The notes: a model not told the origin generated them from the letters alone. 64,000 nt of DNA from Eledone cirrhosa (GCA_964016885.1 OZ024763.1:25978001-26042000); one strand, 5' to 3'. Positions 10,866 to 58,789 are shown, counted from the first letter of the stretch. Translations and numbers: made by a program.

Positions 10866-11138
10866 TCAAAGCTAACACACACATCTACATGCTCAATAAT
10901 CAGGTACGAGAGTTTAAGAACGTCACTGCAGATCATCTGGTTGTAGGATCAAATCAGGCCTAGAGAGACGAGAAACAAAGTCAAGATATATTTTATTAAA
11001 GGCCCCAAAAAGTAAAAGCCAATGTCGACCTCTTTGTAGTTTCAATAAAACTGAGAAAGCCATGAACACCACCACGTCTATTAAACTTCCAAAACAGAAA
11101 GTAGGTTTATAAATATTAATTTTCCAAGTATTTTTAAA

Positions 11139-11234
11139 GCCGTCTCATTGACCTAATGGTAGGTGTTAGAGACGGTGGAGATCTTGGTCAGGGTTTCGAT
11201 CTTGGCCAGGATCTGTATAAAATAAGGGGGTTTT
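11139..11234 (+). ncRNA. Putative Pol III two-hairpin small RNA, unit 1
   Basis: TATA at 11108 (-31); motif catgaacaccaccacgtc at -78..-61; hairpin 1 gccgtctc/gagacggt with inner accta/taggt; hairpin 2 agatcttggtc/ggccaggatct around gtttcgatc; TTTT at 11231. Confidence 0.55.
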
Positions 11235-11343
11235 GCAAATTTTTTACAGTTTTTTTTTTTTTTTTTTCCAATGTAAAATTACAAAAATTTATGGTAAAAG
11301 GAAAAAAAATGTTTATTTACTTTTTGACATTTTTAAAAAGCTG

Positions 11344-11453
11344 AAAAAAAATTAGTGAAACCCCCTTATTTTATCTCGATCGTGGCTAAGATTGAACCTC
11401 CAGACCAGGATCCCCACCATCTCTAACACCTACCAATAGCCCAATGAGACAAC
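11344..11453 (-). ncRNA. Putative Pol III two-hairpin small RNA, unit 2
   Basis: TATA at -31; gttgtctc/gagatggt stem with G:U pairs; B box ggttcaatc; T8 terminator; upstream -78 motif partly deleted. Confidence 0.45.
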
Positions 11454-11540
11454 TTTAAAAATACTTGGAAAATTAATATTTATAAACCTACTTTCTATTT
11501 TAGAAGCAAAATTCATGCCTTTCCCAGAGTTATTATTTCT

Positions 11541-11966
11541 ATTGGCAGTATCGGTAGAGGGTCGGACGCCATGCTTTGACGCATAGAGTTACGGCCCTTT
11601 CCATTCTGAGTTCAAATCCCGCCGAGGTTAACTTTGCCTTTCATCCTTACGGGGTCGATAAAATAAAGTACCAGTAATGTACAGGGGTAATTGCTGGCCT
11701 TGTGCCTAAAGTAGAAACAATTATTACTAAAAAAAAGGTCGAGGGCGGTGGATTGGCAATATCGGTAGAGGGTCGGACGCCATGCTTTGCAGCATAGAGT
11801 TACGGTCCTTTACAGTCTGAGTTCAAATCCCGCCGAGGTTAACTTTGCCTTTCATCCTAACGGGGTCGATCAAATAAAGCACCAGTAACGTACTGGGGTC
11901 GATTTAATCGATTTTTCCCCTCTCCCAAAATTGCTGGCCTTGAGCCTATATAAGAAACCATTATTA
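11541..11966 (+). mobile_element. Two tandem Nin/Deu-like tRNA SINEs
   Basis: ttggcagtatcggtagagggtcggacgccatgc...gagttcaaatcccgccgaggttaactttgcctttcatcc...gaaacaattatt at 11541 and 11742. Confidence 0.9.
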
Positions 11967-13187
11967 CTAAAAAGGGTCGACATTATTTTTCATCCTCAAG
12001 TAAATCTTCACTTTGTTTCTTATTGCTCTAGGGTTGATTTGAACCTACAATTGCTCCGACTTCAGTAATATTCTCTAACTTCAGATCTGTCATACCTAAT
12101 TAATGTGTGTGTGAAAGATTCCAACCTAGTGTGCCGTGTCTGCAAATTGTCAAACCTGATTCCTATATAGATAGATAATTTCTGTACGTTTGTAAGATTT
12201 GAACCTACAATGAGGTGATTTCAACTAATGGCCCTACGTATATGTATTTTTTCTTTTGTTAAAAATAATAATTAAAAGAAACTCTATATCTCCCGGAAAA
12301 GATTGAACTAACAACACTTTAAACTACATTACACCAATAACAACTAAGCTACCGATACACTAATTTCTATGTCAAAAATAATTAACTCCTCAATTTTTAA
12401 ATTACATTACTCCACCTCTTTATATTTTGAGAGCAAATCTTGTTGGAATTTATTTTTAATTTCTATCTTTTTCGAGTAGATAATAGTATAGTACCAGTCA
12501 TCTATTTAGTCAATTGGCTTCTTCCTCTAAATTTCTGGACTTGTTCCTAAGTAACAGATACACACAGTATATATCCGAACCACCAGTTTTAGCATTGGTA
12601 AACAACCTAATGTAAATGATATATAGTTTGTTAATGAAACATATTTTATTCCACTTATTATAAGTACATGATTGCAATAACAACAAAAGAAAAGAAAAAG
12701 TATTAAATAATGAAAGAAATTCTCATTCAGTAGACGTATTTTAATTTTTATTGTTTTCATTACATTAACTGCTCAGTGTACATTTTGTTTTTGTTCTTAC
12801 CATTTTCTACGTTGAATATATATATATTTGTATGTATGTGTGTATAAATATATATGTATATACCTAAGAATGTACATAAACACACACACATACACATATG
12901 TATATGTATATATACTATCCGGGAGCTTCCAACAGTAATGTTTGCATTCTTTAAGGGTATGTCAATATTTATTTATAAAACTGCTCTATATTATATTTTA
13001 TCTGATGAAAGCACACCATAATTTAACTTGGTGTCCTTGAAATATGTATAATGAAATAAATATGGTTTTATAAATATAGTTTCCATTTGTTAATATCGTA
13101 TTTTTACTCCAATTATTTGTTGAGTGCTTTATATCAGTTATAAAAATATTTGCTTGTTGTATCCCAACAATTTAAATAGAACTTTTA

Positions 13188-55555: not shown

Positions 55556-55650
55556 GTTGTCTTCGTAGCCTATTGGTAGGTGTTGGGACAGTGGTGATGC
55601 TGGTCTGGGGTTCAATCTCAGTCAGGAATCTCACGAGAAATTTAATTTTT
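55556..55650 (+). ncRNA. Putative Pol III two-hairpin small RNA, unit 11
   Basis: TATA at 55525 (-31); catgaaggccactacatc at -77; A box tagcctattgg; gttgtctt/gggacagt stem; B box ggttcaatc; T9 terminator. Confidence 0.55.
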
Positions 55651-55674
55651 TTTTAATTTTTCATAAAATGAACG

Positions 55675-55766
55675 AAAAATAGAGGTTGCAGGAATCTGAC
55701 TGAGATCGAACCCCAGACCAGCATCTCCATCACCTCTAATACTTACCACTAGTCTACAGAGGCGGT
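55675..55766 (-). ncRNA. Putative Pol III two-hairpin small RNA, unit 12
   Basis: TATA at -31; cgcctct/agaggtg stem (compensatory); B box ggttcgatc; T5 terminator. Confidence 0.55.
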
Positions 55767-55826
55767 TATAAAAACTTAGTGAAAATTAATATTTATAAAC
55801 CTACTTTTTCAATTTTTTATAAAAAC

Positions 55827-55927
55827 AAAATTTCTGTACAAGGTTTTCATGTACACCTGACAGAGATCGAACCCCTAATCAATATCACCACTGTCTCTAA
55901 TGTCTACCACTAGACCACTGAGACGGT
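55827..55927 (-). ncRNA. Putative Pol III two-hairpin small RNA, unit 13 (extra tandem copy)
   Basis: TATA at -31; A box tggtctagtgg; inner stem gtcta/tagac and ttgat/gtcag (compensatory); B box ggttcgatc. Confidence 0.55.
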
Positions 55928-58789
55928 TATGAAATCGTAGTGAAAATTAATATTTATAAAACTACATTTTGTTTCTGACGATCCCGTAACAAGTTTAAAG
56001 CAGCGATTCTTTGCTTAAACTTTAATTTGTACTCATAATAAATAAATAAACATATGTATTTATGTGTGTATACATGTATATTCGTTGCTTTGATGCTATT
56101 TCTAGCATATTTATTGTTGTTTTTTATGAAAAATACAGAAACCGGAAGTGAAAAGATTGAAAAATCTTTGGTCAAAATTCAGGCGAACATTTTTAAACAA
56201 AAGGATTTTTTTTGTAAACAAACTTGAAATTTTTGCCAAGAAACATAACTCTTGCCTGACTTAAACGCAAAAATTGATGCAAAAACTTTGCGTGTGTGCA
56301 AATTATAGGGACTGTACGAATTCGTTGTGAAAATTAATATTTATAAAACTACATTTTGTTCGGTTGAAAACTCGATGTAGTGGCATTCATGGCTTTTTCG
56401 GGACGTCCTTGAATTCATAAAGTAAATCTAGACTTTATTTCTCATTGCTCTAGGCTCGATTTGAACCTACAACAACTCCGTCTGCAATAATGTCATACCT
56501 CATTCCAGCTTAGTACGTCGTACCCGTAAATTGTTAAACGTGGTTCCTATATATACATGCAAGTAAGATTTGAACCTACAATGCTGTGCTTAATTTCTAT
56601 TAATAAGTGTGTTTTATAAAAGAAAGTAAAGAAACAATTTAATGAAAGTAAAAAATTTATTTTATTCAGGAATGTTTTTTTTTTTATTTTATGTATTCAC
56701 TTCATTAACTGCTGAATAGTTCTCTTGTTTTTGTTTTTGTTTGTTCTTACCATTGTTTACTGTAAATGTGACGAGACTGGATTATTACCAAGTTTTACTG
56801 GATGATGGCATTTCCTTATTTTGTTGTCAGTGGACATCTCTCTAAATACCTGGAATAAACATATGGTGTGTCTTTTACGTAACATTTCATTTAATATCTG
56901 ATGTTCCAATGGATTACTTTTAAAATAAAACCAATAAACAGGACAGGTAGACTCCATCAAAAGAGACCAGAGATGAGGTACGAATAATCTAAAATTAATT
57001 TTTTAAAAAGACAATGTTTAAAGAAAGAAACATTAAAAAAGGATTTCCAACAAACACGTAAAGACAAAGACAATCACATCCACAATTTAATATCTGAAGA
57101 TCAACATTTTTCACGATATAAATAAAACTAAATATGTAAAGTTAAGTGACCTCTCATTTATTTGCTCTAACTTTATTTTAATAATCTGTATTCTGTAGAC
57201 ATATATTTTCGTTGGTGTACATTACGATTTCGTTGATGAAAGTTTTCACTCGTCTTTAGATCTTTATTTCTTATAAAAGTTATCATACTCACCTCCTCTC
57301 ATTAGATCTCTATTTTACTTCTGGAATACTGTATTAACATTTATATTTTCATCTCGATATTATTAAGTATTAAGGTTGCCATGTATTAAATACAGTATAT
57401 AAACAAGGGAATATGAGGAGGGGTAATCATTTAAAAACAGCTAACCCCACACTCTGTGTATTTAGATTACCCCAGGGTGTCCCATGGGCGATTTCATATA
57501 TACATACACACATATATATACAAGTTATTGATTACAGAGTCGGGCTAGACCGATACAGAACGAACCTTAAGCTGATGAATAGCGACACGCGCGCCACGAA
57601 CCAATAAACGTAATGAAGGTGTACCCATTCGTCCTTGTTTTATTATATATATATTTTAATAAATATATATATAATATATATATATATACACATATTAATT
57701 AATTTATTTATTTATTTATTTCCACCTGGAGTTTCGACCGATAGATAGTATTAGCAATTGGAAAGACCAGTGGAAACATTGTTTCGTCGGTCCGATCTGA
57801 CGAAGGTCGATCGACTGTCTATATATGTATATACATACCCATACATTCATATTTACTCACTTCTATGTAAATATATATACATATTAAAAACACATACCAT
57901 ATACCAGCTTAAAAACGATTGACTAACCATCAGGACACATGCTTGCTCTTGTTAAAATTTCACAGAGATACTTATGAAAACCGAACTTGCAAGGCCACGT
58001 ACACTTACATACACACACCTGTACATACACAGACGTATAGAAAAGGTATGACTTATATAGGTACATCAAAGTTAATGTTCCACTATAGCACCATTCGAGG
58101 TAGATAAAACGAAGTACCAGTGTAGTAGTGGGGTCGATTCTTCTTCTATATCTCTTTCTTACTTCCTTTCTCCTACTTTCTCTCCTTCTCTGGTAAATAT
58201 CTCCTGTGATCAGATCTAGGGTAGAGATGGGATCAGTCAGCTTTTACAAAATACCCAAGACACCCCGAATATCAACGTGGGGTCACCAAGACTCCCTCGC
58301 AAGCTATACGTCCCTACATACATAGCAACATCAGACAGATCCTTTATGTAGATCACTTTTACTCGATGATGGAAGACAAGTGGAAATAGGCATCGACATA
58401 TAAATATACAAAAATAGGGGGACCTTATCATCATAAACACTTGGGCTTATGAACACACACACACACACACACACATATATATATATAATTGGTGTTGGAT
58501 GCTTAAAGCCGTATTAGCACTCGATGCTCTCATAGAGTAGAGTATGATATCCCAGAAAAATAGAGAATCAGTGTTGCGACGAAGGGAATTTATTGGACAT
58601 ATTACAATCGTTTCTCTGGTGACCAAATCGAGTCACGATCGATGTGATGATCGAACCTGACTGAAAATTGTAAGGTCCTCAGATTTTCCTATTTCCATAC
58701 ATTTATTTACACACAAAGGATGGCAGACAGATCTCTGTATATTTTCATGAAATTATATTCACCGTTAACATGGAGTGACGACTAAACTG

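What the first reader, a model, noticed from the sequence alone, without database searches (positions are those of the whole stretch)
11061..55958. Invariant promoter geometry upstream of the candidate RNAs: TATA at -31 and a PSE-like motif at -78..-61
Seen: counting from the first base of hairpin 1, the TATA(A/T)A box starts 31 nt upstream in units 1 (11108), 2 (11484), 3 (25291), 4 (25656), 5 (28528), 11 (55525), 12 (55797) and 13 (55958). The motif CATGAA(c/g)(a/g)CCACCAC(a/g)TC lies at -78..-61 in units 1, 3, 4, 5 and 6 and at -77 in unit 11, although the intervening bases are visibly diverged and the flanks contain many indels. Established: vault RNA and tRNA-Sec genes combine upstream PSE/TATA elements with internal boxes, and PSE-TATA spacing is rigid. 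Inference: selection on a hybrid type 2/3 Pol III promoter.
Basis: partly seen in the sequence, partly recalled or inferred. Interest (0 to 1): 0.75.

Follow-up and report, generated by a model that had tools for sequence, protein, structure and literature searches.

The report
Upstream promoter of duplicated small-RNA genes

Summary
The coordinates hold, but 'invariant' is too strong. The window has 15 paralogous ~90-105-nt two-hairpin units (11 distinct lineages) with boxes A and B and a T4 run. A canonical TATA lies in 10 of 15 and the -78/-77 motif in 11 of 15; only 7 have both. All upstream DNA is paralogous, so shared spacing alone proves little. Substitutions do single the motif out: 0.28 changes per site against about 1.0-1.3 in flanks among intact copies (scan-corrected P 0.01-0.06; 0.24-0.44 with decayed copies included). 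The motif starts 47 nt before TATA, against 33 in fly U6, so 'PSE' is only a positional label; the species' snRNA promoters could not be fetched. New: a second, box-B-containing element near -200, and an internal box B that misses consensus in all 15 copies. Best reading: a lineage-specific, tRNA-derived Pol III gene family in birth-and-death evolution, with an internal promoter supported by TATA and upstream sites (4.5SI/vault-like logic). No Rfam family matches. Transcription is not shown.

The parts
10921..10955 (+). unit 1 distal element (about -218..-184), bipartite, holds a box-B-like word
11061..11078 (+). unit 1 upstream motif (-78..-61); 3' end CRE-like
11108..11115 (+). unit 1 TATA box
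11139..11234 (+). unit 1 candidate RNA: two hairpins, box A +11, box B +55, T4 at +93
11348..11453 (-). unit 2 candidate RNA (converges on unit 1)
11477..11517 (-). unit 2 TATA (11477-11484); only the first 6 nt of the motif remain (14-nt deletion); SINE copies inserted further up (11524-11971)
25244..25261 (+). unit 3 upstream motif (-78)
25291..25298 (+). unit 3 TATA box
25322..25417 (+). unit 3 candidate RNA
25530..25625 (-). unit 4 candidate RNA (perfect box A)
25649..25656 (-). unit 4 TATA box
25686..25703 (-). unit 4 upstream motif (-78)
25808..25967 (-). unit 4 distal element, two copies (25808-25842 and 25933-25967)
28369..28386 (+). second motif copy made by a 112-nt tandem duplication upstream of unit 5; no TATA behind it (also at 31819 and 60381)
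28481..28648 (+). unit 5: motif 28481-28498, TATA 28528-28535, RNA 28559-28648
28673..28857 (-). unit 6: RNA 28673-28779, non-canonical TATA position 28803-28810, motif 28840-28857
28887..28930 (+). relic of a SINE core, antisense to unit 6 (about -150..-108); homologous DNA lies upstream of the other units
28962..29152 (-). unit 6 distal element, two copies (28962-28996, 29118-29152)
31931..32098 (+). unit 7 (young duplicate of 5): motif 31931, TATA 31978, RNA 32009-32098
32123..32307 (-). unit 8 (young duplicate of 6)
35295..35468 (+). unit 9, decayed: motif with 3 mismatches at -77, non-canonical TATA, box B and hairpin 2 broken
35487..35616 (-). unit 10, decayed: motif lost, non-canonical TATA
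38834..38999 (-). upstream-only relic, broken off inside the motif; keeps the distal element
53780..53834 (+). orphan promoter: motif 53780-53797 and TATA 53827-53834, no RNA body behind
55479..55649 (+). unit 11: motif 55479-55496 (-77), TATA 55525-55532, RNA 55556-55649
55676..55797 (-). unit 12: RNA 55676-55766, TATA 55790-55797, no motif (local tandem copy behind unit 13)
55827..55958 (-). unit 13: RNA 55827-55927, TATA 55951-55958, no motif in place
56338..56391 (-). orphan promoter 387 nt upstream of unit 13 (TATA 56338-56345, motif 56374-56391); shares about 40 nt with unit 13's TATA region, probably its displaced promoter
60493..60658 (+). unit 14 (young duplicate of 5), outside the finding's range; box B destroyed
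60682..60868 (-). unit 15 (young duplicate of 6), outside the finding's range; TATA tract with 4 changes

Best explanation
A lineage-specific family of small Pol III genes, derived from a tRNA-like ancestor and amplified by DNA-level inverted and then tandem duplication, now in birth-and-death evolution. In working copies TFIIIC would bind the internal boxes A and B, a canonical TATA near -31 would help place TFIIIB, and the -78..-61 motif would bind an upstream activator (its 3' end is CRE-like in 3 copies), with a box-B-containing element near -200 as a possible further site. The product would be a ~90-105-nt RNA of two hairpins, box A in the first loop and box B in the second, ending at a T run. 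Shown: layout, census, folding, relative conservation. Inferred: transcription, the polymerase, the factors, and that the upstream sites make up for a weak internal box B.
For: All 15 units found by a covariance model lie behind the same TATA tract; none is a dispersed copy without its upstream DNA. Box A and box B positions (+11/12, +54..56) match the type 2 positions given in PMC7279448 (+12..22, +54..64). Pairwise identity: motif 0.85, TATA tract 0.90, RNA 0.76, flanks and spacers 0.57-0.73. Among 6 intact lineages the motif has 5 changes in 18 sites against about 17 expected; scan-corrected P 0.017-0.061, permutation 0.038. In comparisons of 4 left arms with 2 right arms the -78 window ranks 1 of 165. 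Given its C/G content, 8 non-consensus letters are seen against 27 expected. The motif has 0 of 36 variable sites in three young blocks against 7.1% background (P 0.07). 85% of cells pair in the two-hairpin structure, 7 of 25 pairs have a change on both sides, 3-10 of 500 shuffles reach this on four of five measures. No unit has a full box B: position 10 misses in 14 of 15. Mammalian type 2 non-tRNA genes use TATA-like boxes plus CRE/Sp1 sites upstream (PMC7279448).
Against: With decayed copies included the motif is the best window but not significant after scanning (P 0.24-0.44), and the 'intact' set was chosen after seeing the data. No indel deficit. In the three young blocks neither the TATA tract (5 of 36 variable) nor the RNA (10 of 159) is more conserved than background. 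Orphan promoters keep the motif almost as well (1 and 2 mismatches to the pattern). Within left arms alone the motif ranks 12 of 165, within right arms 5 of 165. Three copies with an intact RNA body lack the motif. The CRE-like reading holds in only 3 of 13 copies. The covariation control ignores relatedness.
Confidence: 0.5

Rival explanations
1. Shared ancestry without selection on the motif: the spacing is inherited from one ancestral copy, the motif is the lucky best window of ~200 nt of paralogous DNA, and exchange between the inverted arms evens out the inner part. The units may be alive on TATA and internal boxes alone, or mostly dead.
For: The whole -230..+75 region is homologous. Scan-corrected P 0.24-0.44 for all 10 aligned copies. 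Indel P 0.20 and 0.43. Other windows (-198, -155) are nearly as conserved. Partner arms 1/2 and 5/6 are each other's closest relatives over -60..+75 (0.86 and 0.84), as arm-to-arm conversion would give. Part of the upstream DNA is an old SINE relic (z 4.7-8.9).
Against: The motif is a local peak with diverged DNA on both sides (1.55 and 1.70 changes per site against 0.67), which a conversion gradient does not give. It is C/G-rich, the class that changes fastest here. The SINE homology does not reach into the motif (z -0.7 to 1.3).
Confidence: 0.25
2. One reading: the motif is this lineage's PSE, bound by SNAPc, which with TATA recruits Brf2-type TFIIIB; the internal boxes are auxiliary (true type 2/3 hybrid).
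For: Canonical TATA, which animal type 2 genes usually lack (PMC7279448). Motif length near 20 nt with a nearly fixed distance to TATA (46-47 nt). A conserved element near -200, where DSEs lie. Weak internal box B. PSE sequences change fast between lineages (PMC1761439), so a strange sequence is no bar.
Against: Spacing is about 14 nt longer than in fly U6; the 29-nt gap also exceeds the 18-22 bp PSE-TATA distance given for human type 3 promoters (PMC1790723). Units 6, 8 and 15 keep the motif and an unchanged RNA with a damaged TATA; units 2, 12 and 13 keep TATA without the motif.
Confidence: 0.2
3. The converging pairs are a transposable element (inverted-repeat element or SINE copies), and the 'promoter' is just element sequence.
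For: 14 of 15 units sit in tail-to-tail pairs, 211-315 nt between starts. Contigs pile up over the TATA tract and the RNA body. tRNA-like heads are typical of SINEs.
Against: Homology runs on for 0.5 to over 1 kb beyond the arms and whole blocks of 2-4 kb are duplicated: no element boundary. Retroposition cannot copy upstream DNA, yet all 15 units keep it. The window's real SINE is a different sequence and its model does not hit the units significantly.
Confidence: 0.05

Closest known systems
Rodent 4.5SI and 4.5SH RNA genes
   Same: 94-98-nt lineage-restricted RNAs with boxes A and B, a -31/-24 box and CRE, C/EBP or Sp1 sites upstream; 4.5SH genes lie in tandem 4-5-kb repeats (PMC7279448). 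Works-like match is the closest.
   Different: No sequence relation was tested or claimed. Here TATA is canonical, the upstream motif lies at -78..-61 (CRE-like part at about -67..-60) instead of near -50, genes form converging pairs, and expression is unknown.
Vault RNA genes (composite 'type 4' promoter)
   Same: 80-150-nt, boxes A and B, upstream proximal (CRE/TRE-like) and distal elements, clustered paralogues, an extra box B outside the gene in VTRNA1-1 (PMC7058938).
   Different: Vault RNAs pair their 5' and 3' ends; 11 of 15 units here have under one expected 5'-3' pair and fold as two hairpins. The extra box B is upstream here, downstream there. No Rfam vault hit.
Type 3 promoters (U6, 7SK, Y, RNase P/MRP, tRNA-Sec)
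   Same: TATA near -30, a ~20-nt element upstream at a nearly fixed distance, a further element near -200.
   Different: Element 47 nt before TATA against 33 in fly U6; internal boxes A and B both kept; no shown PSE sequence or SNAPc site.
snaR and BC200/BC1-type retroposon-derived Pol III genes
   Same: Lineage-restricted ~100-200-nt RNAs with type 2 or type 2 hybrid promoters (PMC12193147). That snaR lies in segmental tandem arrays and folds into two hairpins is my recall.
   Different: snaR and BC200 derive from Alu/7SL; these units have tRNA-like box spacing and a canonical TATA.
tRNA genes and tRNA-derived SINE heads
   Same: Box A to box B spacing and D-loop/T-loop-like loops. A likeness to tRNA-Glu is recalled, not tested.
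   Different: No cloverleaf: ARAGORN finds 0 genes at default score and only noise-level scores when relaxed; no SINE body or tail; upstream DNA shared.

Membership tests
Pol III type 2 promoter | Box A near +12..+22 (consensus from PMC7279448) | tested here: met
   at +11/12 in 14 of 15; perfect in 3, one mismatch in 9, two in 3
Pol III type 2 promoter | Box B near +54..+64 | tested here: inconclusive
   right place, but 0 of 15 match fully; position 10 misses in 14 of 15; one mismatch only in 10 of 15
Pol III type 2 promoter | Run of at least 4 T as terminator | tested here: met
   first T4 after the body at +85..+106 in 15 of 15; weak evidence in AT-rich DNA
Pol III type 2 promoter | TFIIIC/Pol III occupancy and a transcript | not testable with these tools
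   No expression or binding data in hand
Pol III type 3 promoter (PSE/SNAPc) | Canonical TATA near -30 | tested here: met
   10 of 15; +1 assumed
Pol III type 3 promoter (PSE/SNAPc) | PSE at the SNAPc-TBP distance known from fly and human | tested here: not met
   47/46 nt start-to-start and a 29-nt gap against 33 and 12 in fly and 18-22 bp in human; the distance in this lineage is unknown
Pol III type 3 promoter (PSE/SNAPc) | Same element upstream of this species' U1, U2, U6, 7SK, RNase P genes | not testable with these tools
   No genome held; no snRNA gene in the window; metagenome scan gave 4 unrelated hits
Pol III type 3 promoter (PSE/SNAPc) | Rigid spacing (fewer indels than neighbours) | tested here: inconclusive
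   P 0.20 and 0.43; two spacings, 46 and 47
Pol III type 3 promoter (PSE/SNAPc) | DSE with octamer or SPH near -170..-250 | tested here: inconclusive
   A recurring element lies at about -218..-184 but reads as box-B-like; a likeness to a ZNF143/SPH site is recalled, not tested
Vault RNA | 5' and 3' ends pair into a panhandle | tested here: not met
   under 1 expected closing pair in 11 of 15, 1-2.5 in 3, 9.7 in unit 2; consensus is two hairpins
Vault RNA | Match to the Rfam vault model | tested here: not met
   whole window, gathering; units 3-6, E up to 10
Vault RNA | Association with vault particles/TEP1 | not testable with these tools
   none
tRNA / tRNA-Sec | Cloverleaf with acceptor and anticodon arms | tested here: not met
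SINE | Dispersed copies with unrelated 5' flanks, a body and a tail | tested here: not met
   all 15 keep homologous upstream DNA; window only, genome not seen

The most novel reading that the evidence does not exclude
A multi-copy, lineage-specific Pol III gene family making a tRNA-'elbow'-like RNA (D-like and T-like loops, no anticodon, no acceptor stem) has fixed a defective internal box B and shifted control upstream: TATA, a proximal element sitting about one helical turn further out than known PSEs, and one or two box-B elements at -190 and beyond acting as TFIIIC enhancers. That would be a promoter design not in the papers I saw, partly built on old tRNA/SINE relics, and its decayed copies would be natural mutants of every element.
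Probability: 0.15. Interest if true: 0.72.

Novelty: new member of a known kind. Interest (0 to 1): 0.45.

Why it matters
If transcribed, this is an RNA family absent from Rfam, with a composite Pol III promoter, in an invertebrate lineage for which my paper searches found no description of snRNA or Pol III promoters. The motif would be a first handle on that lineage's upstream Pol III elements and a candidate driver for guide or hairpin RNA expression. The array also holds natural deletions of motif, TATA, box B and RNA body, so one small-RNA library and one ChIP would show which elements matter. If the motif is neutral, the finding shrinks to ordinary paralogy in a segmental duplication.

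Tried and rejected
Own genome: none held, so the comparison with U6, 7SK, RNase P and tRNA-Sec promoters was not run. Rfam: 0 hits at gathering in the window; 13 weak hits in 24900-29100, all far below gathering, the best ones plant/animal miRNA hairpins caused by the inverted pair. ARAGORN: 0; relaxed scores give 47-183 noise calls. Sequencing runs: no RNA holder listed; all four runs are contigs from one study, kind not on record, so nothing on expression either way. Metagenome scan for motif plus TATA: 4 loci, three of them one near-identical stretch, none with an Rfam hit or a box A/B body behind; taken as chance. Viral contigs: 0 matches to a 24-nt body pattern. Idea that the motif is part of the antisense SINE relic: not supported (z at most 1.3), although single alignments touch its 5' half. 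Indel contrast: not significant. The distal-motif count used a wrong spacer length and gave 0; corrected. The sigma-70 scan is irrelevant to a eukaryote. Earlier scan notes: nothing by place, sequence or words; one unrelated fungal note, not used. Paper searches gave no description of this RNA or of mollusc snRNA promoters; 32 was swamped by unrelated words. Rows dropped: units 7, 8, 14 (young duplicates) and 2, 10, 12, 13 (broken upstream) were left out of the alignment; units 8, 9 and 15 out of alignment A2.

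
Full report
Setting. The window is AT-rich animal-type DNA with long TA microsatellites, SINE copies and 2-4-kb blocks duplicated at 67-95% identity. From recall (repeat make-up, RTE-like fragments, the SINE core) it looks like an octopod cephalopod; this was not tested. No whole genome is held. Rfam finds no family at gathering score and ARAGORN no tRNA.

Census. A covariance model built from 12 units finds exactly 15 copies (E 5e-19 to 2e-4; next hit E 0.16; 12 of them built the model). 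Fourteen form tail-to-tail pairs with 211-315 nt between starts; unit 13 is an extra tandem copy. Units 5/7/14 and 6/8/15 are triplicates of one pair, so there are 11 distinct lineages. Two orphan promoters (53780-53834, 56338-56391) and upstream-only relics also occur.

Check of the observation. All TATA and motif coordinates are correct. The motif has 15 matches against 0.10 expected, but all are paralogues. It is in place in 11 of 15 units (9 at -78, 2 at -77) and absent in units 2, 10, 12 and 13. A canonical TATA is present in 10 of 15; both are present in 7 of 15, and in 6 with a recognisable box B. Unit 2 lost the motif by a 14-nt deletion; unit 13 appears to have been parted from its motif by 387 nt, with about 40 nt duplicated. 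The geometry is therefore conserved, not invariant, and +1 is an assumed position.

Is the motif under selection? Homology extends to at least -230, so the test is motif against neighbouring duplicated DNA. Pairwise identity among 9 copies: 0.85 in the motif, 0.90 in the TATA tract, 0.76 in the RNA, 0.57-0.73 in all other segments. On a tree of 10 copies the motif has 0.67 changes per site against 1.55 upstream and 1.70 in the spacer; it is the best 18-nt window, but a best window this good arises in 24-44% of neutral simulations and 30% of permutations. For the 6 lineages with an intact RNA body it has 5 changes against about 17 expected: scan-corrected P 0.017 (uniform rates), 0.061 (gamma rates), 0.038 (permutation); this subset was chosen after seeing the data. 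Between 4 left and 2 right arms, the oldest split, the -78 window ranks 1 of 165; within left arms 12 and within right arms 5. C and G columns vary most in this region, yet the C-rich motif has 8 non-consensus letters against 27 expected. In three young blocks the motif has 0 of 36 variable sites against 114 of 1598 (P 0.07), while the TATA tract (5 of 36) and the RNA (10 of 159) are not below background. Indels: 6 against 1 (P 0.20) and 9 against 4 (P 0.43), with the four disrupted promoters left out. Net: moderate support from substitutions, none from indels.

Is it a PSE? Nothing here shows it. In Drosophila U6 the PSEA covers positions 1-21 and TATA 34-41, conserved across most insects with 1-2 nt shift in silkworm (PMC1761439, passages); human PSE-TATA distances are given as 18-22 bp (PMC1790723, passages); PSEs lie about 40-70 bp upstream (PMC9652321, passages). 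Here the motif starts 46-47 nt before TATA and leaves a 29-nt gap. Its 3' end reads as a CRE-like word in units 1, 3 and the orphan at 53780, and differs at that one position in the others (the CRE label is my recall). CRE, C/EBP and Sp1 sites with TATA-like boxes are the usual upstream help of mammalian type 2 non-tRNA genes (PMC7279448, abstract and sections 3 and 17), and the vault 'proximal element' itself consists of CRE- and TRE-like motifs (PMC7058938, passages). Figures with PSE logos are not held and no supplements were read; they could bear on the sequence comparison.

The gene body. Box A lies at +11/12 (perfect in 3, one mismatch in 9, two in 3) and box B at +53..56; none of 15 matches box B fully and 14 miss position 10; T4 follows at +85..106. 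The RNA folds into two hairpins with box A and box B in the loops; folding z is -7.0, -4.1 and -3.8 for units 1, 3 and 4, -0.6 to -2.5 for ten others, and +0.5 for units 2 and 10. Across 12 copies 85% of cells pair and 7 of 25 pairs have a change on both sides; 3-10 of 500 shuffles reach four of the measures and 36 of 500 the fifth, with relatedness uncontrolled. There is no 5'-3' panhandle in 11 of 15 units, so these are not vault RNAs by structure (vault criteria from PMC8824774, passages and section 20).

Further upstream. -160..-101 is an antisense relic of the window's SINE core (z 4.7-8.9 against five SINE copies); the likeness does not extend significantly into -100..-56 (z at most 1.3). 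At about -218..-184 lies a second, bipartite element holding a box-B-like word, with an older copy 88-160 nt further up on several arms: 17 hits against 0-1 in 30 shuffles (pattern drawn from these sites). Between the two copies the right half is 0.88 identical (it was the search key), the left half 0.51, spacer and flanks 0.30-0.33. It has 1 of 105 variable sites in the young blocks (P 0.005), but the 119 nt between the two copies are invariant as well, so a homogenised tract could explain part of that. It may be a factor site or a tRNA/SINE relic.

Other data. Contigs of four public runs (one study, at most two samples) laid on 24400-26370 at 80% likeness pile up at the TATA tract of unit 3 (69-76 contigs in X1-X3) and in the body of unit 4 (80-94), against 1-4 at most listed places in the flanks, and one contig follows unit 3's promoter into a different box-A-bearing body. 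This suggests more paralogues than the window shows; depth is not a copy number and the AT-rich tract may attract unrelated contigs.

Mechanism and verdict. Most likely (0.5) a tRNA-derived, lineage-specific Pol III gene family with an internal promoter supported by TATA and upstream factor sites, evolving by duplication and decay; it works like 4.5SI/4.5SH and vault genes but is a member of neither. Rivals: shared ancestry with no selection on the motif (0.25), true SNAPc-bound PSE (0.2), transposable element (0.05). Searches found no description of this RNA or promoter; PMC4824008 and PMC12193147 were seen as passages only, and most subscription papers are not in the library. Novelty: new member of a known kind. 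Interest 0.45.

Noticed in passing
window 10921-10955 (+), 25808-25967, 28962-29152, 32412-32604, 60973-61161, 56458-56492, 12036-12230, 36905-36939, 38950-39101 (-), 55260-55386 (+): A second recurring upstream element near -200, bipartite with an 8-nt free spacer and a box-B-like word, often in two copies; spacing resembles a tRNA anticodon loop to T arm (recall).
   Followed up: partly
all 15 units, +54..+66: Internal box B misses the consensus at position 10 in 14 of 15 copies, the position that is C in tRNAs.
   Followed up: partly
window 28887-28930 and homologous sites: Old SINE-core relic in antisense at -160..-101 of the units.
   Followed up: yes
window 11106-11486 and 28526-28812: Partner arms 1/2 and 5/6 are each other's closest relatives over -60..+75, and units 2, 3, 4 share 3' flanks at 85-93%: possible arm-to-arm gene conversion.
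   Followed up: partly
window 28700-28779, 32150-32229, 60711-60790: Units 6/8/15 have an unchanged 80-nt body although their TATA is non-canonical and unit 15's TATA tract carries 4 changes.
   Followed up: no
window 28300-28523, 31750-31973, 60312-60535: 112-nt tandem duplication gives a second motif copy without TATA; it has decayed more than the proximal copy (4-nt deletion in one block).
   Followed up: partly
window 5084-5318, 11524-11971, 45181-45345, 51371-51565, 53120-53326 and others: Young SINE family with tRNA-like head, about 85-95% identical; two copies in tandem split unit 2 from its upstream DNA.
   Followed up: partly
window 13189-18454, 40175-45075, 45871-46866: A 5-kb TA array, a 5-kb purine-rich GA array and a 1-kb minisatellite of 20-31-nt units.
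   Followed up: no
window 2655-2976, 6932-7095, 47577-48061: Fragments resembling the 3' end of an RTE-type LINE open reading frame (label recalled).
   Followed up: no
window 24450-24600: A short, very high-copy repeat with inverted character: contig depth about a thousand times the neighbouring DNA.
   Followed up: no
window 10640-10845 and 49738-49814: Other tRNA-like heads with box A/B words that belong to different repeats, not to the 15 units.
   Followed up: no
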